Assembly: GCA_965112155.1 (NCBI GenBank)
Contig: OZ218114.1
Length of the DNA stretch: 64,000 nt
Direction: 5' to 3' (one strand)
Source of the DNA: Podarcis liolepis
Lineage: Eukaryota
In this document: one piece after another, positions 6,001 through 27,665 of the stretch
Layout of the letters: the number at the start of each line of letters is the position of its first letter
How positions within the stretch are numbered: position 1 is the stretch's first letter
Program-made: the position numbers and the translations under genes
The notes under the pieces: model-generated
What the model saw: only the letters and a program-made list of their open reading frames with translations
The model's database searches: none
What the model was told of the DNA's origin: nothing

Positions 6001-8759
6001 TCAAAATTAGCACAGCCATGTCCTTCTGAGACAGAGTCCCTTTTAGACGTGTCAACCATTTTCAGAATACTCCAATCCACCCTGCACAACAAGGAAGACT
6101 GCCATCTCTCTTTCTCTCTCTAATCACACTTTCTTGGGGGCTCAGATGTTGTTGAACTACAACTCCCATCACCCTAGCTAGCAAGGCCAGAGCTCAGGGA
6201 TGATGGGAGTTGTAGTCCAACACAGGCTGTGAACTGCTGCATGGGTAGGCAAACTAAGACCCGGGGGCCGGATCTGGCCCAATCACCTTCTAAATCCGGC
6301 CTGTGGATAGTCCGGGAATCAGCGTGTTTTTACATGATTAGAATGTGTGCTTTTATTTAAAATGCATTTCTGGGTTATTTGTGGGGCATAGGAATTCGTT
6401 CATTTCCCCCCAAAAATATAGCCCGGCCCCACAAGGTCTGAGGGACAGTGGACCAGCCTCCTGCTGAAAACGTTTGCTGACTCCTGCTCTAAACCCTTGA
6501 TGCCATGCTCCATTATCCTTCTTCTCTGGATACATTTTGTTTTGTTTTTACTTTGAGGAAGGACCCTCCACTTATCACCCTGTTATGAACAACCTTTATC
6601 ACCTACTTTTGAGGATCAGGTCTCCTGTGGGAGGATATTTCAGAGTGCCATGAGACATAAGCTGACTCCACCACCCTTTCCATATTGCCCAGGCTCATTT
6701 CCTGGACAAAATGATCAAGGTCCGAAGAAAGCTTGGGGGGGGGGTGACACTCCTACCACAACTTCCTCTAAAAGACCACCCATGGACACTATGTTTCAAG
6801 AACACACCAACAAGCACTTCCTTTGATATAATGCTCCATTCTCCAAGGTGAGAGGAAAGCGAAGATCATCCTCCTAGTGAAAATCTCGTTTTATCACAAA
6901 AACCTCTTTTCCAGGGTGCGGTTCTTCTTTCTGAAGGGGCAGGCCATGACAAGCAAACACCTCTTGATTTAAATGGGGGGGGGGGCTTTATAAGGAGACA
7001 CCCCTTTTGGATCACCACCACACACACCTTCTCAGAACTATGTCCTGCAGCATTAATGAAGCCAGCATCCTTCTCATGTGTGTATACCTGGAAGAAGTAC
7101 ATTTTGGAAGGGGTGTGTGGGAAGTATGCTTGTGGGGATGCACCTTCTCTAGTGAAGGCAATGTTCCTTTTAGGAAACCCAAGACTGCCTTTTATTAGGC
7201 TGGCTTTCATTTCGTTACTAAACTGCCCCCTTCCCTCGCAACATTTCTAGCATCATGTTAACGTAATACTTTCTAAAGTGGTGAGATGGGAAGGAGGGAG
7301 AACCCTGCTGCTTGCTTTTTATTATTTACTTGAAAAATGTATACACTACCTTTTAAGGTAAAGCCCTCCCAAGGCAGCTAATAAATTATAATTAATGCAG
7401 TATGAAACAAATTTTAAACTACTGTACATACAAAATGATTCAATCACAAAACTAGCAGCAGCAGCCGTTTAGAATCTCGTCACATATTTAGAAAAATGAA
7501 GACTGAAACAAAAAAAGTTTTAAAGGTATGTTAAAAGCTAACATACATATTTCTTTCACAAGCAAGCTCCAGACATATGGGGCCACCACTACAAGTGCCC
7601 CATCACTAGCTGATGGACCTTGATGACAGGCCTGTGAGCAACCTTAATGCCCAGGCAGCTAATACAGGAGCAGGCTTGGGACTAGGTTATGGCTTTAAAT
7701 GTAAAATGCAGCACTTTAGAGCCCATAAATAAGTAACCCAAGATAACTGGTATAGTATCAGTCTAGTATGCTTTGACTGCCATCCCTCCCACCCACCCCG
7801 CCATTCTTGCAGCCGCATTCTGTACTTGTCGAAGTTTCTGAGTGTCTTTAAACACAGCCCTAGGAATTGTGCATTAGTCGGGATATAGGCAAAACACGTG
7901 TAACTGTTAAGGTTTGCTTTCTCCAGGTATGGTTGCAACTGGAAGCCAGCCTAAGCTGGTAAAAAGGCACCCCTAGTCACTGGCAGGATCCAAGCTCCCA
8001 GTGACAGTACCAAGTACAAGAGAACCCCAAAACCACATACTTGATGTTTCAGGGGGAATGCGGCCCCATCCCAAACTGGCTGCATATCTCCATCCAGATC
8101 AGCAGATTTCCCACCCCACACTGCCTCTCTCTTTATCCTAATTCAGCTTCAACTAGGCCACCTGCATCCATTCCAAGATAGCCTCCCCCTAGGGCTTGCA
8201 GGTGGAGAAGAGGGGTAAGGCTGTGTGTCATCTGCATAGGAATGACATTTAGCCTGAACCTCATGATGACTTCCCCCACCAATGGTTTCTTGCAGATGTT
8301 AAAGATGACAGAGAAACAGGACACAACCTTGAGGCACCCCAAAGGGCAAGGCCATGAAGTGGAAAAGAAGCTCCCAGAGCACCCACCCAAAGACTTTAGT
8401 ACTTTTAGAAAAAGGAATGGGGGGGGGAATACCGCCTCCTTTCTCTTGTTAATATTTGTATTATGGGTCACCCCCCAAAAAGGACCCACCACAATCCTTT
8501 CCCCTTTCCCGGAATCCACATTATTATAGTTTCCCAAGGAGAAAAGACACATGGATGCAGAAAGAAAGGGGGAGAGAAAAGAGCATTTACCTTTCTTTCA
8601 TCAGCACACCTCAAGGAGAAGGGGGTGGAGAAGAAGGAAAGCAGGAGATTGATAGAAATGCTCCCCCCTCCACCCGTGGTTTGAGAGAAGGAAGAAAATA
8701 AGGCGGGACACAGCTCGATCCCCTTCAAACATAACCTCCACCAAAGGGAAAAATAGAGA

Positions 8760-9960
8760 AACGCCCCCTTGGTTGGAAGAAGAATGGGGCGCCCGCGTTC
8801 ACACGTTATCCTCACCCAACACGCGTGTTGTTCAGGGGGAAAAATCCCCTCCCCCTTCTCAACGGTGCCAGAGAAAGGTGAGGGTGGGGGGCTCGCCATG
8901 CCCACCTCCCTTCTCTCTCACCCCCCCCCCCCGCCAAGACCGCGCTCCCCTTTTCCTCTCAGGCGCCTCTCCCCACCTCGCTCCGCGTGATGCGGTGCCG
9001 GCCCAGCTTGACCACGGCGAAGTTGCCCTTGCCCAGGGTGCCCTCGATCTCGTAGAAGCCGACGCGGACGGGGCCCGACCCTCCGCGGGGCGGCTGCAAG
9101 AGCAGCGCCGCGGCAGCAGGGGGAAGCCGCCGGGGCTCGGCCATCACCATGCTGCCCGGGCGGCTCCCCGCTCCTCCTCGCCGCCACCACCTCCTCCTCC
9201 TGCCGCCGGGGCTGCTTCCCCGCTCCTTCCCCTCCGCCTCTCCCTCTCGCTCTTTCCCTCACGAAGGACTGAGCAGCCGCCACTGAAGCCCGGCGCCCTC
9301 CCAGCCACCGCCGCCGCCGCGCTCGGCTCCTCCCCCTTGGCTCCTCCCAGGCTCCGCGCGTCACGGCGCGCGTCATCGGAGAGGGTGGGGGCGCGCGTCG
9401 CCGCGGCAACCGGAGCCAACCGCGGGCGAATGTTCCAACGGCCATCTCCTCTCCCACCCGCCATCGCTCTCTATCCTCCCGCCGCGCGCGCGCGCCACTT
9501 CCCAGTTCAGGGGGCCGTTCCCGCCAATGGGAGGGGGAGGGGGAAAATCCCCATCAACCCCCGCGCGATACTTGAGGGGCTTTCCTGCCACCTCCACCCC
9601 TTTTTGCATTCCCGTTTGTGGGGCTGCGCGAGGTGTTATCGCCTCTCTCAAACTGTGCTTTAGCACCGGGCACCCCTCGCTGTGCCATAAGCATCAGGAG
9701 AAGCGGCTCTGGCTTTAAAAATGGGGGGGGGGGCAGGCGCTCTTTTTTTGACATTGATAACCTCCCCAGTTGCTTATCGAGTCGTCCTGCGAGGGACCGT
9801 TTTTCTTCGCCAGCCACGTCATTTTACCACACGTTCACAGAATGCGCGGTTTGCCTCGCGTTTTACCTCACGTTCTGTGGCTGCGCGCATTTTGCACCTG
9901 ATGCGTGTGGTCACCATCTCCCTCGCCGCTTGGCACAATGGGAGGGCAAATTTTGTGACG
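8760..9960. promoter_or_regulatory. SIK2 CpG-island promoter/5'UTR
   Basis: CpG-dense block over exon 1; two half-CRE CGTCA (9359-9363, 9371-9375), X-box-like GTCGCCGCGGCAAC (9397-9410), CCAAT near 9523. Confidence 0.8.
8977..9150 (-). CDS. SIK2: Salt-inducible kinase 2, coding exon 1 (58 codons; remaining exons not found in this window)
   Basis: MVMAEP...[33 protein letters not shown] matches the SIK2 N-terminus and kinase Gly-loop; phase-0 donor GAG|GTGGGG; lies downstream of LAYN as in human. Confidence 0.95.
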
Positions 9961-12900
9961 CGAAAGATTATAGTTTCGTTGTTCCCTTTCAATACTGAAA
10001 TGTTTGAATATGGTGAGCTTCATAACATCAGAAGAGCCTCACTGGATCAAGCTAATGGCCTGCCTGATAAATGTGCCCAATGTACTTTTATGGACACATT
10101 TTGGTGCATAACCATTCTACAGAGGGAGAAGATTCTTTCTCTTCTACTGTTTCCCTCACAGTGAGATGCTTTAGTTTGCCCTAATGAAGTTGGAAACTTT
10201 GTTTTGTCCTGATTAAGATTTTCGAGTCACCAGGAAAGCTTGTGAATGGGATTCAACTGCATATTGGCAAATTCAGATTGTACAGTGAAAGTGATTCAGT
10301 AAACAGCACACCCCGCCCCCCTCAGCCTTTTTGCAGCAAGGAAAGTGATGTTAAAACTGGAAAGTGGGACACTAATTACTAGACATTGATGCCATGTAAC
10401 CTTGCAAACAGAGGAATGGATGCCCAATAAATTGGGTTGGGTATTGTATATAATCTTGCAAACTTAGTGCAAACAAAACCGGACAAATACTCATTAGGTT
10501 GTTTGGAAGTGATCCGTCTGCTTCCATTAAATGGGAATAATAAATAATGCACACAGTGAGCTGTTTTAGGTGGGTTTTTTTTGCAAACTATGTGCTGGGT
10601 AATCCTGGGTTTCCTTGGAAACATAGATTCCTATATGAGAACTCAAAACTTGCATTTTGTGATATTTTAGTTGACTTGATAAAGGTGCTGCCCTAAGAAT
10701 GAATTTTAGGTTTCCCCCTCTTAATAAGATCACTCATGGAAGACAACCTTTCCCAATTGCTGAAGTTGTCGGGGGGGGGGGGGTAATGGTAAAGCCCAAC
10801 AGGCTGAGGACCAGTGCCCCATATACTGTGTGTGCCCTAGAACCTTCTTCACAACTCTGCAACAAAACCACAGACCAACATCCTAATCTAAAGCAAAATT
10901 GCAGACTTGAGGGAGAATAGTTACACCTTAGGAAATGCTTCCTGCATCTATATTGTATTTATACTACAACATAAATACCAACCAGTGGGGCCATGGCATT
11001 ATGGAAAAGGAGAAGGAGCAGAAGAGGGGTTGTCTGTTTGTGATGCTGAAATATATAACTCTTGTGATATCGCTGCATAGGTCAAAGAGATGATTGCCTA
11101 ACAAAACCAGTCTCCAAGGTGCCACAGTGTCTTTTATCTTCTGTCTTGATCCTATAATTCTCCCAATTTACTCCTGGCAGCCTATGGGGACTCCAAAGTT
11201 ACTTGGATGATTGCAAAACCATTCCTAATTATAAGGCAAAACTGAGCTAGCGCTGGTTTGGAAGAGATTAGGACAGTCTGGGCATGAGAGGATATTGAGT
11301 AATGGAGATATTTCTGCCTTTTAATCCAAAATAAGTAGCTAAAAAGATACTTATTTTGATCCTGCTTTGTTTTAAATCTTAATAACTGTGCAGCACTTAC
11401 TTTATTGATTTATCATACCCATAATTGTTGAACTAGATGGGAGGGTGGTAGATGAACAATGGTATGTTAGCTACTAGCCAGTGCCACCCAAACAGAAAGA
11501 GTTGAAGGGTATTTTTGAGTCTGAGTTTTTTTTTAGTTAATATGGAGAGAAGACAAATTCTAGCATAATCCTGTTTCTGGAGATAGAACTAGTATGAGCC
11601 AGAGGGCAGACTATATTTTTTGTGGATCCTACAACAATAAATTTAAGTTACTTAGTTTTAACGTGCTTTGGGATGCCTAATTATGTACAGAACCAGGCTA
11701 CAGTTTGTGTAGCTGATTTTTTAAGCCTCAGTTTCCATAGTAGAAATCATAGTGGTCTATCTTGTGTGACTGTTGTGAGGAGAAAATCTAAATAGCTAAT
11801 TACTTTCGACAGCTTTAGTTCTCATGTTTTTACCCATGTCTGACTTCAAATTCTTCTTTAATCTATCCATGGTCATTACTGCATGGTGTTAAAAGCCTAT
11901 AATTAATTTGCAAGTGTCAATTTGTTTACATATCTACAACTATGAGCCCTGGACGCTAACAGCAACAAGAAAAACCAGCTGGTCAGATAGCAGCTGGAAG
12001 TTTTATGTGGGGCAAACTTCAGGTGATGTCCACCTCTGCAACCTCCATTCAACAATGAACCCTTCTGTAAAGGGCTATTTCAGAGGGGATTTGGCACCCA
12101 AGAGTCTCTGTTTTGTACACCGTGATGACTTATGGTCTACCTCCACAGGTGGAAGCAGTATGCCTATGAAAGTCAGTTATGGGGAAAGCGCTGTTGTACT
12201 GAGGTCCTTCTTGCGGGCTTCCCATAGATATATAGTTGGCCACTGAGAACACAATGCTAAGCCACAAGTCTGATCCAGCAAGCTGTTCTTACACCATATG
12301 GATATATGATTATACAGTATAAAAATCTGAATAAATTATAAATTTAGTGTGACATTCCAAGGCATCACAAAGCTGAGCAGGTGAAAGGATTTATGGATCT
12401 AGTTGTAAAATAAGTCCCTCTACAAATTTTAAGCTGAACAGTGCCCTGTTTTTTTGTTTTGCTCTTCTCCTTGCCGTCTGGGTACTCCTTCCACCCTTGG
12501 TTCAGTGCTCCCAGTTTTGGCAATTCTTGTGACCTGTGATATTTGCCAGAGCTTCTGGCTTCTCTGCTTAACTTCAAGTTTCCCTGATGATTAAACTGAC
12601 AACTGTTTTAACCCCAGCAAAAGATGTGCTCCCAAGCTAGTCTGCTGCTGAATACAGTCAAATTAACCACTTTCTGGACTCTGGTGCTCAGTAGCCATCC
12701 AGTCCAAAGGTTTGGAAGCAAGTATTGTGCCACATCCAGTTCTGGTGTGTTAGTTGTACTATACAATTGGCCTAATGACAGATTCCAAACCACCACTGTC
12801 TCCCATGGATTGCCAAGACTTTACCAGAATAGCCCCTCTTTGGTTTTCTTCTCAGGGTTGAAAAACGCAAGACAAAAAAAATGCACATACTGTACAGGTA

Positions 12901-16439: not shown

Positions 16440-17394
16440 GCCTGTTTACATTGCAATGTAGAAATTTCCTGTGATAGGAGAAACTAACCTTGGTATCCCC
16501 AGTGCCATAACTTGCAAATAAAGAAATGCTAGTGAGATTGATTAACTTTTTAAAAATAGCAATAAAAATTGAAATGCATCTAACTACTTAATGAAAAAGG
16601 TACCTTTAGCACAGCAATTGGGAAACCAAGCAAGAGGCATCACTCAACTACCGGTAACTACCACTTCCTTGGTGCAACCTGGCAACTGTTGCCTAGCACT
16701 GTTTTGACTGTTGCTCATGGGCAGCAATCTTGGGCATTATTGTTGCCTTTGCTTTTAAGCAACACATGGCTGATTCACACATGCATGCTCATCCCTTGCT
16801 CATCAAGACGCGACTTGCATGTGGGACTGTATCATCACAGATCAAACACAATGCACTTAAGTAGAGGAATTTCACACATTCAGCAATGTGTGCTGACTAA
16901 TTCAATGGTGGTCAGGAGGACTCAGCCCACTGAAGTAGATGTGCACACATGTTTAGTAACCCTGGCCATCTTAATAGCATGGAGTTATAGTCCAGCAAAC
17001 AGTTCACCAGCAAAACATGTGTATTCCTTGATAAACAACATACAAGGTTGCATTCAGACATGCACAAGAGAAACTTGACAGCAGTGCAATAATACCCATG
17101 TCCAGGATAACGGGAAAAGTAACTGAAAATACAATGAAGGTTTGTGGCTGTTTGTACACTAAGGTTTGTAAACTAAAAGTTACTAGAGTTTTGTCAGTCA
17201 TCAAATTTGAAAGGTGCCCAAGGCTATCTTGATACCAATTCCAGGATCCTACTACCCTACATTCCAACTGGAATCATCTGGAGAGGGAATTTCCCTTATA
17301 GGGGATTCTCATTCATATGTGGGTTAACGCAGTGTTTCCCAACCGGTGTTCCGCGGCACACTAGTGCCGCGAGACGTTGCCTGGTGTGCCGTGG

Positions 17395-18067
17395 GAGGGA
17401 GGCGGGCGAGTCGGGCGGCGAGAGGCGGGGCGGCGGCGGCATCTCCTGCTGGATGCAAATCCAAACATGGCGGGCGCCTCCCTCGCTCCTTTGTAGGCGG
17501 ACCATCGAGAGAGAAAGAAAAGGAGGCGAAAGAGCGAGAGAAGGCGCCTGCGCGGAAAGAGGAGCGAGCAGTGCGTCTGCGCGCCGCGGCGCCCGAGTGC
17601 AGTGAAATTCCGTGAAGAGGGGAGGGGGGGCTGGAAAAGAGAGAAAAGAAAGATTTTTCATTTTTTTTAAAAAAAAAAGGAAGAGGGAAAGAAGAGAAAA
17701 AGCGGCAGAAGCTGAGGGGAAGGTTTCCGTGAGGGAGAGAGAGAGAGAAACACGGGGCTGGCGGGACCCCTCCTCTTCCGCCACGCGTCGCCCGCCACCG
17801 CCTCAGAATCTCCTCAGGAGCGGCGGCGGCTGCTCCCCCTCGCCCCCTTCCTCCCCCCCAGCCCCCTCCCAACCCCCGGACGAGGGACGCGAGGCGGCGC
17901 CGCTGAGAGGACGGGAAGGCCCCCGGCGGCGGGGTCGGCTCGAGCAAGGAGGGGCGAGCGCTAGCCGGCTGGCTCTAGCCCGGCAAGTGGAGGAGGAGGA
18001 GGAGGAGCACGCCGTCGCTTCCACAGCGGCCGCCCCACACTCCCCTCCCCGGGCACCGGCGGGGAGA
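17395..18067 (+). promoter_or_regulatory. Captured CpG island/5'UTR, inferred to come from UBE2G1
   Basis: CpG-rich sequence running directly into the UBE2G1 ATG; YY1-type AACATGGCG (~17464-17472) and NRF1-type GCGCCTGCGC (17544-17553) motifs. Confidence 0.7.
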
Positions 18068-18113
18068 ATGACGGAGCTCCAGTCCGCGCTGCTACTGCGG
18101 AGACAGCTGGCAG
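18068..18113 (+). pseudogene. UBE2G1: Orphan copy of UBE2G1 coding exon 1 (46 nt) with its splice donor
   Basis: Encodes MTELQSALLLRRQLA+G, the conserved UBE2G1 N-terminus, followed by GTCGGT; no further UBE2G1 exons found in the window. Confidence 0.88.
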
Positions 18114-18425
18114 GTCGGTCTGTCCGTCGGTCGGGGCAAAACACACCACAGCGCAGGCAGAGGCAGGCAGGCCCGTCTCTCCCTGCCCCCCCTCGGACCT
18201 GGCCGGCCTGGGGTTTGCACCCCAAACATTCATGTCCACCCCAGCTACACAAGCCCACACCTTGCTCTCAGTTCGATCTGTCAAATAACTCACCTATCAT
18301 TCACATAAAGAACCTAGTCTATCCTCAAACGTCAGAATGCACCTCCTCTCTAGCTTCCCCCACTTCATCTAGGCACTTTCAGCCCTTACTTAACCCACCC
18401 CAGCCTGCTTACTCTTCCTTCATTT

Positions 18426-18551
18426 GCTATAAAAACTAAATACAGAGAGAGACTGAGAGCTGTTGATGAAGAGCTACGTGTGTGTCTTTCTTCGATTCCA
18501 GCCAGAATATCAGCTTTGTGTTCAGCCAAACAGGCCCAGGTTGCGCACTGA
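18426..18551 (+). pseudogene. C-terminal remnant of hAT (Charlie/Buster-like) transposase
   Basis: [41 protein letters not shown] fits the K-T-K-Y-R-x-R-L...LRV.LS...Q...H* end of Charlie/Buster transposases; stop overlaps AATAAA (18551-18556). Confidence 0.85.
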
Positions 18552-21500
18552 ATAAAGTATTTTATAATTTTTCATATTTCTGTTTACTTACTATTTCATA
18601 ATAAAGTAATTATAAAATACTTTCTTTGTGTTTATTTGATTCCTATTAAAGAGAGTTACTTTATATATATATACTTTAAACATTTTCTAATGGTGGTGTG
18701 CCTCAAGATTTTTTTCATGAAACAAGTGTGCCTTTGCCCAAAAAAGGTTGGGAAACACTGGGTTAACGGATTGTCCGTATTCAATCGCTCCTTTTCTATC
18801 CATTAAGTGCAGGAAGCAACTTCTCTGTTTGAGCCATTCACATAACATGGTTGCCAGTTCTCACGTGTCTGAAAATCACGCAGTGAGAATTGCTGTCATC
18901 AGATTCCATTACAGCTATTTGTGCTGAATTGCACATATAGGAAAAAATATGCTCTGAACACCCTGCATGTCACACAAAGTAATACACTCTGGTAAGGAGT
19001 ATAAACACCCATTTCCTTATGCCCTGACCACAAGGTTCCAAGTGGCCTAGCCTGCTTTCTAGTTACTCAAGCAAGACCTCATGTCTTTTTGGCTAATCTT
19101 TGCCTCAGAGTCAAATTTGATGTTACTTTTTCCCTGTGGTTAGCATCCACATCATTTTTAGGTTAAAAAAAATACTTGGCACAAACCCCTTTTTCTTACA
19201 ACTGGATATGAATGTGGGAAGTGAGGTTTAACCCTTCCACGGAATCCCCCCAAATCCCTGTGTGCTAGATTAGAAGAAGAAAAAGCTCTGTTGGTCTCTG
19301 CTTTTCAGCCCCTTCTCTCTGCCCTTTCTTTCCTCCACCCCTTGTGTTCTCTGCCTCTTGAAGAGAAGAGTCCCATCAAAACTGATCTTTATTTTCACCA
19401 TAAAAGTTGGTCTGTTTGTGGGGATTCTATTGTCTTCAGTGCCATTCCTTCCAAGTTAGAATGTTCACAGACATTCCATGACATCACAGCAACTCAGCCA
19501 CCCACAGCCAGAGGCTTCAGACATCCACATGCATACAACCCAACACCACCACAAATATCACCTTACAATATAATTTAAAAAAATTGTGGCCTCATATGGT
19601 AACACTGTTCCACTCAGTACACGATAACAGACTGCTGCTATTACTAAGTATCTTTTCTGTCACATGTCAAATAACAAAACAAAACAAAACAATTTTTCCC
19701 CGGTCTTATTCCAATTCACAGCTTCTTCCTTGGAGCAGAAAACCGGAGGAGTTGTAGCATTCAGGTTAAAAACTGCAGGCCTCAACTAAACATGTCAACA
19801 AATAATGCATTGATTGTTTGGTTTGGACATTTCCAGGAATTACAGCATGGAATTCAATAAGACTACTTTTGACACCACTGTACAAACATAGCCCCAGTCA
19901 CTTTGTTACTTTTTCCAGTGTGGGTCTCTCATCACTTGAGGCAGAAACTCACTGAAACATGGAGGAAAGGATCTCAGGGAACTTTATTACATTTCCTGAA
20001 ACCGACATCTTCTTCAGTCCCTCATTTAGTATTGTGCTTCCAAAAACAGATATCAGGCCCTTTTTTGACACTGGAGGAAGTCTTGTCAGTCCTGGCTCAT
20101 TTAGAGGTCAAAGTTTAAAAATTCCACTTAAGGATCAATGGTTAAAAAAAAAATCAAAATCAAAGTATAATGTATTCGATATCCGATGGCAAAGGAGGAA
20201 TTTCATTTGTTTCCCTCTGTCTTAGGACTGATGGTAGAAAATCAGGATTAGATGCTGCTTCCAGAAGACTGTTGCTCATGAAGATTTGCTTTCAGTTATT
20301 TCCATCACTTGTGTTTGTCCTGTTGCTAGACTTTAAAATCTTTTCAAAATTGTACTGTAAAACACGAAAGGAACAAGAAATAGTAATAAGAAAAAGAGGC
20401 GAAAGGCATGCAGAGACTTACTTTCCATCTTCACTGTTCAGGAAATCACATTCCGCACACACAAAAATTGCATTTGGAAGCTCTTGTCAAGTTCACGTTA
20501 CGCTTACATTGCAATTGTGCATTCAACAAATTTATAAATATGTAACAGATAAACAAGACTTGTAAATAGCCACACACCGGTCTATTGATTTCTATGCAAA
20601 AGTATATAAATGGGATAAGCATCCTCCCATGGATATGAATGGGTTCAAAATTGTGCCTTGGCCAAATCATGTTGCTTTCATGGATAGGTGAGCTAGCAAT
20701 TTTTTGTGTACTTTGGTACTTTTTGTGGACATTCACAAGGCTGGGAAGAATATAAGAGTTAATGCTATCAGGCTCAAACCGTACATGACATTAATCACCC
20801 ATGTAGCAGAGAAAGTGGGCACAGCAGTTCTTCTGTCTCTTCCATTATACTAGAACACAGGGTCATCTAATTATTAAACTGATTAGCTGTCAGTTCAGGA
20901 CTGAAAAGAGAAAGTGCTGCTTTGCATAATACATAATTGCTAACTTCACTAGATTTGCTGCCATAATATCTAGTGATGTCCACTGAGTTAGACTTTTTTT
21001 AAAAAGGGCCTTTAAACGGGATTAATCAAATTCATCAAAGAGGTCTAAAAATGCCCATTACTGAAGTTGGCTATATGGAATTAATGTTCAGAGGCACTAT
21101 CACATTTTACCTTAAGTCCTATTTCAAGTCTTCAAGCGGAAGAGTCTGCACTGATGTAGCCAAATGGCATAATCCAAGCACAAAGTTTGGGGGAGTCCTG
21201 AGATTTGCAGCAGCATGAACAACAACAACAACCCTAATGTTGGGGAGGGGACATTCCATATTAGTTTGAAGTGGATACAAGTATGTTTGCTCCTTAGAGG
21301 AAAATAGCAGCTGCTGGGGTGGGCAAATTTGGATTAAGAAAATAGTGGCAGGGGAAGGGTTAAGTCTTCATCTCCCAGTGCCACCACCCTGATCTGAATC
21401 CCTCCCCCTTCCTAAAAAAGCAACAACACAAAACCATTAGGATATCCAACCACAGATCTCCAGGTGTCACTACTAGCCTCTCAAAAGTGCACTGATGCAT

Positions 21501-22621
21501 TGGCTTCTACCACAACAGATTTATACAGAATGTGTTATTATGTGTTTCAGACTGGTGGTATTTTTCTACTCCCCATTACATTCACTAACCTTGCACAGTA
21601 ATCTCATCTGCATCAGGACTTCTAGGAGTGCAGCTGTGCTGGTCTTCAACACCCTTGCTGGCAGCAGAAAGCATAAAAGAGGTAATAACGTAACAGTAGC
21701 TGGCCACCTATTTCCTCCAAAATTAAGTGACCAGTGTTTAATCTTTCCCTCAAGGCATATGAGCAAACCTGGCACAGAGGTCTATTGTACAGCAGCATAT
21801 AAGTGCCTTCTTGGCTCTACAGATGCAGATGTGTCTATAAATTTTTGCTTTAGCAATCTTTCCAAAAAAGAGGGGTTAGGGATTGTCGCCATTCCTATGG
21901 TGAACGCATTGCCTGCACAGATACTGCAAGTTCTTTATATTTAGGTTCTTGGAATGAGTCTTTTTGCTTAACGTGTTACATCCAACATCCGAAACATATT
22001 GCTTTGTTGGTTTTTGATGTCATTTGATGTCGATGTCCTGTGTTGGGAGGCCTTGGGTATAAGAAAGCTAATCAGTTGTTGCAAAAGTAGGCTGGGTGGA
22101 TAAGAGCAAAGCACAATAGAGGAACAGCCCCCTCCTTGCTGGAAAACTGATGGCTTTCAGGATGAGAAAAGATGGATACTAGGCAGCTGGTGAAAACTAG
22201 GTACTGATGGTCACCTGTGACACCTGTAGTATTTTTAGCCTGGAGCTGGAAAAACCATCACTGAATAACTCACAAGCTCCATCTGGGCTTAGGCAATTAG
22301 CTTAAAAGACAGGAGTTTTGATTTAAGTGCATGTTGTCACAAGACAGAAATACTGTCAAGTTGTAGATTATTAGGGAATGATGTCTGTCTGTCAAGGAAT
22401 GGAAGCAAGATTGCACAAGGCCATTTTCCTTAGCTGAGTAAGAGCTCTACATATATAAATTCCCTCACATTCCACTTTCAGAAAAAGGAAAACCTTTATC
22501 ATAAAAACACAAACACTGCCAAATGCAGAAATCACATTCCTTTGCCTACAAGGCGCGCATCCCTGTGTGCCAGAGCTAGTTCCAGTGTCCACTTAGCTCA
22601 ATAGCCAAAGCACTGTCTTCA

Positions 22622-22982
22622 TTAATAGCCATAGATCTCGTTTTCTACCCAGGCTGATTCTTTGCTTCGCCCCACTCGGTCATTGCACAGTTCGTATATG
22701 TCATTGGTGACAAATCCACTTTCGGTGCTGGCCAAAGTCACAAAGCCGCTCTCTGAGGTGTTGACAGCCATATTGTCATAGTCCCCAGAGAGGTCATCAG
22801 GAGTATCTTCTCCAGGACGGGCCCGGAAAGAAGAGTTCTTAATGTCTGGTCTGGTCCTAGCGAGATCTGTTTCTGACTGTTTTCTGATTACATTGTATAT
22901 CTCCAAACTGGGGCTGTTCTGTCTCTTGGGGGACAGCCAGGTATCCTGTTCCTTTGCGTTCATCTCCGTTTGCTCCCGTCTC
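22622..22982 (-). CDS. LAYN: Layilin last coding exon (cytoplasmic tail)
   Basis: RREQTEMNAKEQDTW...YNVIRKQSETDLARTRPD...ESGFVT...ESGFVTNDIYE...ESAWVENEIYGY*; acceptor ttctaag. Confidence 0.96.
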
Positions 22983-24911: not shown

Positions 24912-25354
24912 CTGCAAGGGAAAAAACATACAGACATACATTTTCTGCTGCATTTGGTCACCAGGAGAAACTTAATCCCACTCCCCCAATGTTTTGGCTT
25001 ATCCATGGACGTTCTCGGCACATTTGATATTGTGTCCCAGAAGTTTAGTTAAGGAGACCATTTTTGGAAACGGCTTGCAACTTGTCACTGAAACCATTTT
25101 TCCATTTCCCTTGTCATTTCATCGCCTTCAGATTTTTTCGGTGCCCAATGGTGATACTTAAAAGTCTTAACCTGCATCCTCTCTAAGGGTGGCTCTCGAG
25201 AAGCTATGGTTCCATACAATTCCCTTCTAGGTTTCTTGATGTTCCTATGAGCAATATCTTCAAGTATGTGGCCAGTGAATGCTAGAGGCCCATTATTGTA
25301 CTGCACATTGCAAACTCCATCAAAGCTGTGAGAACTAAGCCTCGCAATACAGTA

Positions 25355-25963
25355 CAGTGGTACCTTGGGTTACATACGCTTCAGGTTACAGACTCCGCTA
25401 ATCCAGAAATAGTACCTCGGGTTAAGAACTTAGCTTCAGGATGAGAACAGAAATCGTGCTCCAGCACGATTTTTAAGAAAATGTAAATAGGGATTGATAA
25501 TTGGAAAATTGATATTTATAATAGGTTAACATCTTGAGTGAGGATAAATGCCAGAGGGTAAGGATTTGCTGAATTTAATATCTGAACTGGAATACAAAAT
25601 GAGAGGTGTGAGGTCAAGAAACTAGTGAAGGAAGTACAAGATTTGAAATTACTAATCTATTTCCTGTTTTGCTTTTTGGGTTTTTCTTTTTGTCCTTCTT
25701 TCTTTTTTGTATTTTTATGTGTTTTGTTTTTTGTATTTTTATATTTTTGTAGTTTTTTCTTTATGTTTAAATGTTGGAATTTTTTATTATCTGTGAAACC
25801 TTAATAAATATTATTATAAAAAAAAGAGAACAGAAATCGTGCTCCAGAGGCGTGGTGGCAGTGGGAGGCCCCATTAGCTAAAGTGGTGCTTCAGGCTAAG
25901 AACAGTTTCAGGTTAAGAACGGGCCTCCGGAATGAATTAAGTACTTAACCCGAGGTACCACTT
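25355..25963. mobile_element. Tigger/pogo-like MITE (TIR CAGTGGTACCT) interrupted by a retroposed insert
   Basis: TA flanks; same family as 26393, 37839, 43621. Confidence 0.8.
25465..25825 (+). mobile_element. 5'-truncated L1/Tx1-like 3' end
   Basis: AATAAA+A tail; 22-bp TSD GAGAACAGAAATCGTGCTCCAG (25443-25464, 25826-25847). Confidence 0.75.
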
Positions 25964-26392
25964 TATCTTCTTCTGAGTTGGAAACTGTTAAAAAAAACCA
26001 GCTGGAAGAGGAAGGGGGCACAGAGCATGAAAAAAGAGCTGTGAGTGGAGAGGGGCCTTTCCCCCTCCTTTAGATCGCCTGGGAAATGCATCAAACCTGC
26101 TGTACCTGGAACTGAGTGTGGAGAGTACAGCTGAATGACACACAGGTGGGCAGCCTGAGGAAGTGCCATCCACTTTGGGCCTGCCCATAAAAAACAAGTC
26201 TAGAATGAGAGCCTAGGGTGATGTCCTCTGTTTCCAGGAACTCGTCTTCTTGTGAGACTTTTGTGGGGAGCTGAGAGTTTGTTTGGGTGAGAACCCCGAG
26301 GCTGAGAGGGAGGGTGTGCCAGAAGGGAGAAAAACCTGATATTGATTTATATATATTAGTAACTCTGTATTAATGTAACATTTTTGTATGTA

Positions 26393-26637
26393 CAGTGGTA
26401 CCTCTGGTTAAGAACTTAATTTGTTCTGTAGGTCCGTTCTTAACCTGAAACTGTTCTTAACCTGAAGCACCACTTTAGCTAATGGGGCCTCCCGCTGTCG
26501 CCGCAGCGCCACCACTGTGCAATTTCTGTTCTCATCCTGAAGCAAAGTTATTAACCTGAGGTACTATTTCTGGGTTAGTGGAGTCTGTAACCTGAAGTAT
26601 CTGTAACCTGAAGCGTCTGTAACCTGAGGTACCACTG
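26393..26637. mobile_element. Tigger-like MITE, inverted relative to the 25355 copy
   Basis: CAGTGGTACCTC...GAGGTACCACTG, TA TSD. Confidence 0.85.
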
Positions 26638-27195
26638 TACCTGTAACTCTGAATTTTAGTAATATTTTGTTTAAGTTGTCTGTTGTTGCTTCTTTTTTGT
26701 ACAGTATGCTGCTTAGAGATATTTTAAAATATATTAAGCAGTATAGAAATTGAATAATCATTCAAGCAATAACCAAATATACGCTGAGTTCAGAGACTGC
26801 CCCAGTAGCATTTCCCTTTTAATGCCTATTGCAGTGCTGAGAAAACTGCCTATATGGAAAGATGCTGGGTTTCTTCAAAACTGGAGAGACATCACAATAT
26901 ACAGATATATGTTATTAATCATTCTTGGTTCCATTTCTTTCAGTTAAGGCCAAAGGACATAGGATGTTCATTCCACAACCACAAAAGATAAAGTCCATAA
27001 TTAGCAAGTTAACTCTTAGGACTCCATAACACAAGTAGACATTGCGTTTAATGACACATTCCCAGGCATTCATGTATCCCTTTGTGGCGTTTGCCCTCCC
27101 ATGTGTGTGACTTCATACTGGGTTCATAGGGAAAGGGTTAACTAATTGTAAAATGACTAACCAATGGGAACCCACGGGGCAGAGTTAACTGTGTA

Positions 27196-27516
27196 CAGTG
27201 GTACCTCGCAAGACGAAAGGGTTTTTTGTTTTTTGAGCTGCTTCGCAAGACGATTTTCCCTATGGGCTTGCTTCGCAAGATGGAAACGTCTTGCAAGTTT
27301 GTTTCCTTTTTCTTAACACCATTAATACAGTTGTGACTTGACTTCGAGGAGCAACTCATAGAACGCGGTTTGGTAGCCTTTTTTGAGGTTTTTAAAGATT
27401 GGTGATTTTTGAAGCTTTTCCAAAACTTTCCTGACACCGTGCTTCGCAAGATGAAAAAAATCGCAAGACAACAAAACTCGCGGAATGAATTAATTTCGTC
27501 TTGCGAGGCACCACTG
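27196..27516. mobile_element. Tigger-like MITE subfamily B (CGCAAGACG repeats)
   Basis: TIRs and TA TSD; relative at 48055-48380. Confidence 0.8.
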
Positions 27517-27665
27517 TATAAGGTTTAAGCACAGAGAGAATTTGTTAAGAGGAGTTAGAGTGGTTGAGAAGACAGTCTGGAGTTAGACGAAAGAGGGAAG
27601 ATAAGTCTGTGGGTTGGGCTAGTCTGGTGTGAGAGAGTGAGAGAATTTGTTAAGAGGAGTCAATG

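What the first reader, a model, noticed from the sequence alone, without database searches (positions are those of the whole stretch)
17395..18556. The captured cassette could be a self-contained transcription unit pointing antisense toward LAYN
Seen: promoter-type motifs (YY1-like, NRF1-like), the UBE2G1 ATG, an unspliced read-through ORF 18068-18439 (123 aa: 15 UBE2G1 residues plus novel sequence), and AATAAA at 18551 supplied by the transposon. It lies on the plus strand ~3.9 kb beyond the LAYN stop and ~8 kb upstream of the SIK2 start. Inference: it could yield a chimeric mini-transcript, splice from its orphan donor into LAYN-antisense exons, act as an ectopic CpG island or enhancer for SIK2, or generate small RNAs matching the real UBE2G1 5' end.
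Basis: inference. Interest (0 to 1): 0.7.

Follow-up and report, generated by a model that had tools for sequence, protein, structure and literature searches.

The report
Jumping copies of UBE2G1's front end
This is one of 21 near-identical copies of a cut-and-paste transposon carrying the front end of the housekeeping gene UBE2G1; some copies are read as unspliced RNA in a related animal, but this copy is a recent insertion, missing from the three other animals checked, and likely a methylated passenger rather than a working gene or regulator.

Summary
The sequence features are real, but they belong to a family, not to this locus. Window 17330-18760 is a 1,431-bp non-autonomous hAT (Buster-type) element with an 8-bp target duplication, one of 21 copies about 0.7% from their majority sequence. 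Its cargo is the 5' leader, exon 1 and intron start of UBE2G1, plus an inverted intron-1 piece. The 123-aa peptide rests on a 1-nt insertion private to this copy; 11 of 21 copies give 79 aa. The site is empty in 3 of 3 DNA runs, including one 0.5% from the window, so the RNA runs (from an organism whose one laid DNA run lacks the insertion) cannot test this copy. CpG decay (12.6-fold family-wide, 8.5-fold here) points to germline methylation. Unexpectedly, an older, unrelated hAT-like family captured the same exon independently (at least 20 loci). Verdict: a multicopy Pack-TIR, a known but rarely reported kind in animals; a role at LAYN/SIK2 is unsupported and untested. Not found earlier by this scan.

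The parts
17322..17329 (.). left 8-bp target-site duplication (TA at positions 4-5)
   Evidence: empty sites skip exactly 1,439 = 1,431 + 8 bases
17330..17440 (+). hAT left end: 15-bp TIR and two GC boxes (17413, 17428), shared with many sibling elements
17441..17459 (+). 19-nt filler of untraced origin, holds an upstream ATG (17453)
17460..18215 (+). cargo 1: UBE2G1 5' CpG-island leader, exon 1 and 102 nt of intron 1 (GC 0.66, CpG o/e 0.84)
   Evidence: 95.8% with gaps (11 substitutions) to G000:C17:33484670-33485432 minus
17464..17472 (+). YY1-like motif, inherited from UBE2G1; intact in 15 of 21 copies
17544..17553 (+). NRF1-like motif; the source has a second one, which this copy lost by a private change at 17576
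18068..18113 (+). UBE2G1 exon-1 coding part (15 codons + 1 nt), followed by the native splice donor at 18114
18068..18439 (+). 123-aa read-through ORF; this peptide is private to this copy (1-nt insertion near 18254)
   Evidence: no Pfam hit
18214..18425 (-). cargo 2: 212-bp piece of UBE2G1 intron 1, from 1.23 kb further in, inverted; 2-nt overlaps at both joins
   Evidence: 92.5% to G000:C17:33483229-33483440
18424..18760 (+). hAT right end: last 42 codons of the transposase, stop 18549-18551, AATAAA 18551 and 18600, minus-strand AATAAA 18636, TIR 18746-18760
18761..18768 (.). right 8-bp target-site duplication
19745..22624 (-). neighbour: LAYN-like stop (22622-22624) and 3' region; spliced reads join 21590 to 20354 in the related organism
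8501..10000 (-). neighbour: SIK-family gene start (ATG 9150) with its own CpG island

Best explanation
This is a recent, unfixed insertion of a 21-copy non-autonomous hAT transposon that carries the 5' end of UBE2G1, and at this site it is likely a methylated passenger with no job. The cargo was inferred to be copied once into a broken element by microhomology-guided template switching (two pieces, the second inverted), then spread by a Buster-type transposase supplied in trans, probably by the intact 4.2-kb partner or a close relative. Some family copies are read as unspliced sense RNA, which would be non-coding or give an unselected 41-124-aa peptide. Shown: structure, source, copy number, empty sites, CpG bias, family RNA in a relative. 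Inferred: capture route, which transposase acted, methylation, silence of this copy.
For: 21 full copies plus one source for cargo 2 (22 of 22 candidates scored); perfect 8-bp TSD in 20 of 21, TA at 4-5 in 20 of 21. Copies differ 0.4-1.1% from the majority and share all 24 substitutions and the indels against the source nearly throughout; 141 of 172 derived variants are singletons. Single contigs bridge the empty site in X15, X17, X20 and none of their laid depth carries this copy's letters at 17576, 18254, 18340, 18467; flank divergence 0.5, 1.8, 1.0%. CpG transitions 106/3940 against 55/25764 elsewhere (12.6-fold, p 8e-54); this copy 4/188 against 3/1195 (8.5-fold, p 0.008). ORF lengths 41-124 aa, 79 in 11 of 21. 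YY1-like motif broken or deleted in 6 of 21. Partner: five 4.2-kb copies, 99.6-99.9% alike, own TSDs, 626-aa ORF, ZBED5/SCAND3-like.
Against: Family RNA exists: element-allele reads 7 and 7 (X23) and 24 and 23 (X24) against source-allele 30/24 and 7/9 at 18019/18038; depth about 17 over 18107-18340, on the sense strand (17 vs 0; 17.6 vs 2.45). Within the captured island alone this copy's CpG bias is not significant (2/144 vs 2/599, p 0.17). Germline CpG decay says little about somatic methylation. No RNA, chromatin or methylation data from a carrier were available.
Confidence: 0.7

Rival explanations
1. This copy is a working mini transcription unit: GC boxes in the transposon's left end plus the captured island start a roughly 1.1-kb unspliced sense RNA that ends at the transposase poly(A) signal, without reaching LAYN.
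For: Sense-biased, unspliced family RNA across both cargo joins in X23 and X24, with minority indel variants that suggest more than one source copy; X1 contigs 17348-17651 and 18092-18448 at depth 32-33 against 2-7.5 in the flanks (RNA status of X1 is a guess). Motifs, ATG and AATAAA intact here.
Against: Read-through from host genes cannot be excluded: no start or end pile-up was found (table 6) and the X1 contig begins in the transposon end, before the cargo. In X21 and X22 all reads at 18019/18038 are source-type (5/5, 7/7). The source's CpG-rich zone and a second YY1-type motif lie upstream of the capture point, so the cargo may be mostly 5' UTR. CpG decay.
Confidence: 0.2
2. The insertion changes a neighbour: antisense RNA or splicing into the LAYN 3' region, early termination of long LAYN RNAs at the element's minus-strand AATAAA (18636), or an ectopic island acting on SIK2.
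For: Orientation and distances are as claimed. LAYN-side RNA reaches 19745-20354 through a spliced 3' exon, with sparse reads nearer the site.
Against: A sense RNA must pass two AATAAA and one ATTAAA and about 1 kb of flank to meet that RNA. Family RNA runs through the donor unspliced; no donor joint listed. SIK2 has its own island. The insertion is not fixed.
Confidence: 0.07
3. The family as a whole feeds back on UBE2G1, through RNA antisense to intron 1 (the inverted piece) or small RNAs matching its 5' end.
For: Sense family RNA contains 212 nt complementary to intron 1 at 92%; 23 and 19 antisense reads at 17576 in X23, X24.
Against: Those antisense reads stop by 17647 and fit a shorter derivative (L010 type) that is deeper in that organism's DNA run. 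No small-RNA data were laid.
Confidence: 0.03

Closest known systems
Multicopy Pack-TIRs of animals, e.g. Pack-hAT-N8_XT of Xenopus tropicalis (Tan et al. 2021, PMC8277862; sections 7-10 read, supplements searched)
   Same: Host 5' sequence between hAT ends, distinct TSDs, far from the source, microhomology at joins.
   Different: The frog example has a 291-bp 5' UTR piece in three copies; this has 968 bp in two pieces, one inverted, with start codon and donor, in 21 copies. The survey found 4 multicopy families and 0 Pack-TIRs in its one lizard genome. UBE2G1 is not in its supplements.
HelibatN3 and other promoter-carrying bat Helitrons (Thomas et al. 2014, PMC4224331; passages read)
   Same: Same cargo type (promoter, 5' UTR, first exon, part of intron 1), amplified; serial capture; 5' ends over-represented and higher in copy number.
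   Different: Rolling-circle elements, not cut-and-paste hAT; about a thousand copies for HelibatN3.
Ssk-FB4 of Drosophila (PMC8277862 sections 9-10)
   Same: Polymorphic, multicopy, carries a gene's upstream region, transcribed.
   Different: Carries nearly a whole gene and makes protein; here only 15 codons and no conserved ORF.
Buster-family hAT elements and MITEs (PMC3517528; passages read)
   Same: 8-bp nnnTAnnn TSD, short CAG-starting TIR, ZBED5/SCAND3-like transposase.
   Different: No transposase tree was built here; cargo-bearing derivatives are not discussed in the passages read.

Membership tests
Pack-TIR (multicopy) | TIRs and TSD enclosing non-transposon host sequence | tested here: met
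Pack-TIR (multicopy) | identifiable parental locus lacking the transposon ends | tested here: met
   UBE2G1 locus; no element ends in 49 kb around it
Pack-TIR (multicopy) | several copies with distinct TSDs | tested here: met
   21 copies, perfect TSD in 20
Pack-TIR (multicopy) | DNA-level capture (intron kept, no poly(A) tail) | tested here: met
   intron-1 sequence in both cargo pieces
hAT, Buster family | 8-bp TSD with nnnTAnnn consensus | tested here: met
   20 of 21
hAT, Buster family | related transposase | tested here: met
   right end is the C-terminal part of a 626-aa ORF whose relatives are named ZBED5-/SCAND3-like, some with PF05699; the local Pfam scan gave only a sub-cutoff zinc finger and the PDB none
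hAT, Buster family | placement in the Buster clade by tree | not tested
   no tree built
Functional chimeric gene (Ssk-FB4 type) | conserved ORF across copies | tested here: not met
   41-124 aa, this peptide in 1 of 21
Functional chimeric gene (Ssk-FB4 type) | this copy transcribed from its own start site | not testable with these tools
   no carrier among laid DNA runs
Functional chimeric gene (Ssk-FB4 type) | family copies transcribed | tested here: met
   X23, X24; start site unknown
Exapted CpG-island promoter or enhancer | escape from methylation, motif conservation, fixation | tested here: not met
   CpG decay family-wide (island part of this copy inconclusive), motifs eroding, site empty in 3 of 3 runs

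The most novel reading that the evidence does not exclude
A still-active reptile hAT clan serially harvests CpG-rich gene starts; UBE2G1 exon 1 is a capture hotspot taken twice, far apart in time, by unrelated elements; and the cargo works as a portable promoter that scatters new, polymorphic start sites (this one facing LAYN) and helps carriers spread.
Probability: 0.17. Interest if true: 0.72.

Novelty: new member of a known kind. Interest (0 to 1): 0.45.

Why it matters
Multicopy gene-carrying cut-and-paste elements are rarely reported in animals (4 families in a 100-genome survey). A 21-copy, polymorphic family with a known source, empty sites in close relatives and an intact partner is a ready natural experiment on whether a moved CpG island keeps promoter activity. 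Two independent captures of one exon give a handle on why gene starts are captured preferentially. The specific LAYN/SIK2 effect matters only if a carrier shows it.

Tried and rejected
Run search: no RNA holder listed on record. Test of this copy's transcription: not possible; absence of its private letters in X21-X24 and of plus-strand RNA towards LAYN was set aside because the one DNA run laid for that organism label lacks the insertion. Retrocopy origin rejected: intron kept, TIRs present. Cargo 2 from another locus rejected: only one non-family match. Young family derived from the old one rejected: larger cargo, 96% vs about 82% to the source, different ends. Divergent transcription from the island not accepted: antisense reads end where the shorter L010-type derivative ends. 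Splice from 18113 to the acceptor-like site at 18353: not listed in 8 runs (tables may be cut). Source of the cargo in L052 and L056 not traced. UBE2G1 start site could not be placed. LAYN tail had no PDB or Pfam hit. The protein atlas gave no answer. Paper searches (listings only, apart from the four papers cited as read) showed no report of this family. Earlier-findings look-ups: nothing by sequence, six unrelated notes by place.

Full report
Observation. The motifs, ATG 18068, 123-aa ORF, donor at 18113/18114 and AATAAA 18551 are all present. The flanking genes lie on the minus strand at the stated distances: a C-type-lectin gene ends at 22622-22624 and a SIK-family kinase starts at 9150; the names LAYN and SIK2 rest on this plus recalled synteny. 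Taken alone the features are modest: 7% of shuffles give such an open frame, 12.5% a YY1 core, 1.8% an NRF1-like motif, 21% an AATAAA.

What it is. The cassette sits in a 1,431-bp element, 17330-18760, with 15-bp inverted ends and an 8-bp target duplication. The genome holds 21 full copies, 20 with perfect duplications, 20 with TA at positions 4-5, the Buster signature. Copies are 0.4-1.1% from their majority and 1.46% apart on average, in a star-like pattern. The cargo comes from one locus 13 Mb away on the same contig, a full UBE2G1 gene: 756 bp of leader, exon 1 and intron start, then 212 bp from 1.23 kb further into intron 1, inverted. The joins overlap by 2 nt, and the left join has a 19-nt filler; this fits template switching during repair (inference; model in PMC8277862). 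The right 337 bp are the end of a transposase gene, whose stop overlaps the AATAAA. Five of five 4.2-kb elements examined end to end have own duplications, 99.6-99.9% identity and a 626-aa ORF; its closest relative is a Podarcis muralis protein at 98% and named relatives are ZBED5-/SCAND3-like.

The ORF. The peptide depends on a 1-nt insertion near 18254 found in 1 of 21 copies; 11 copies give 79 aa, four reach 123-124 aa by other shifts, the rest 41-80 aa. It has no Pfam match. Nothing suggests selection on it.

Age at this site. In three DNA runs one contig crosses the site without the element, skipping 1,439 bases. Their flanks differ from the window by 0.5, 1.8 and 1.0%. All three hold the family elsewhere, at contig depths roughly 19-44 times the flank (not a true copy number). 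So the family is shared but this insertion is recent and unfixed, or limited to one lineage.

Methylation. CpG transitions exceed other transitions 12.6-fold over 21 copies and 10.2-fold inside the captured island; this copy gives 8.5-fold overall (p 0.008) but only 2/144 against 2/599 inside the island (p 0.17). The YY1-like motif is broken or deleted in 6 of 21 copies and this copy has lost one of two NRF1-like motifs. Germline methylation is inferred, not measured. The source's CpG-rich zone and a second YY1-type motif extend upstream of the capture point; YY1 sites occur both at and downstream of start sites (PMC3491394, passages), so whether the true start site was captured is open.

RNA. 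Four raw RNA runs of organism A (6-12% of each read) were laid. Source UBE2G1 reads fix the strand. In bulk runs X23 and X24, element-type reads number 7/7 and 24/23 at two diagnostic sites against 30/24 and 7/9 source-type, and continue past the donor and across the inversion at depth about 17, almost all sense. In single-cell runs X21 and X22 all reads at those sites are source-type. No joint from the donor and no start or end pile-up was listed. It does not show where that RNA starts, and it cannot speak for this copy. The same runs show a spliced LAYN-side 3' exon (21590 to 20354) reaching to about 1 kb from the site.

A second capture. At least 20 further loci (lower bound) carry about 320 bp of the same exon at about 82% identity. 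All 12 inspected have at least one end of a different short element, and 5 of 8 with both ends found have 8-bp duplications matching at 7 or 8 places. An empty copy of that element lies in UBE2G1 intron 1, 2.2 kb from the exon; a rough chance figure is 0.3% if its 1,039 candidates are its copy number. Ends, cargo limits and age differ from the young family, so the exon was captured twice. Siblings of the young family carry other cargo: one six-copy group traces to a single CpG-rich locus without transposon ends; two others were not traced.

Verdict. A new multicopy Pack-TIR of hAT type, with the cargo plan of bat HelibatN3. Most likely a passenger here (0.70); own transcript 0.20; effect on neighbours 0.07; feedback on UBE2G1 0.03. 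The interest lies in the family: 21 copies, polymorphic sites, an intact partner and a twice-captured exon. I found no report of it in six paper searches or in the Pack-TIR survey's supplements.

Noticed in passing
L024-L026, L033-L041; empty copy at L009:3406-3580: Older family (about 400 bp, 79% pairwise) carrying the same UBE2G1 exon 1 between different hAT-like ends; an empty copy of that element lies in UBE2G1 intron 1. All eight aligned copies have T at the last exon base of the donor.
   Followed up: partly
window 18072-18132 in run X1: A contig of depth 196 carries old-family letters and runs on into that family's right end, so one old copy may lie in a well-expressed RNA; X1 being RNA is a guess.
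   Followed up: no
L049:3301-7507 (also L050, L051, L062, L063): The youngest intact partner is composite: a CpG-rich 1.7-kb 5' extension with an exon-like stretch and donor, matching a locus without transposon ends (L071, 90%), lies before an internal old left end and the transposase ORF. It may supply a spliced leader.
   Followed up: partly
L052-L061, L064-L075: Sibling elements share the left 111 bp (1,168 first-look candidates) and carry nested CpG-rich cargo with CRE- and NRF1-like motifs and donor-like sites; L054's cargo traces to L064.
   Followed up: partly
L010:1337-2958: Derivative keeping only the first 138 bp of the UBE2G1 cargo, followed by a GC-rich repeat array; this part is about ten times deeper than the rest of the cargo in DNA run X17.
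   Followed up: partly
window 17460-18213 versus 18214-18425: Element and source differ by 11 of 756 bases in cargo 1 but 13 of 210 in cargo 2 (p 4e-4). Unexplained: two-step capture, later conversion, error-prone copying or constraint.
   Followed up: no
window 20354-21590: Spliced reads show an intron downstream of the LAYN-like stop, so an alternative 3' exon reaches towards the insertion site.
   Followed up: no
G000:C17: Four of 21 copies lie on the source's contig (2.9% of the genome); leaving out the given copy, p about 0.02.
   Followed up: no
L044:1398-3275: The transposase has 85-93% identical relatives in frogs and a snake and 79-80% in fishes, a pattern suggesting horizontal transfer.
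   Followed up: no
window 25352-27525: Nested inverted-repeat elements inside the LAYN-like gene.
   Followed up: no
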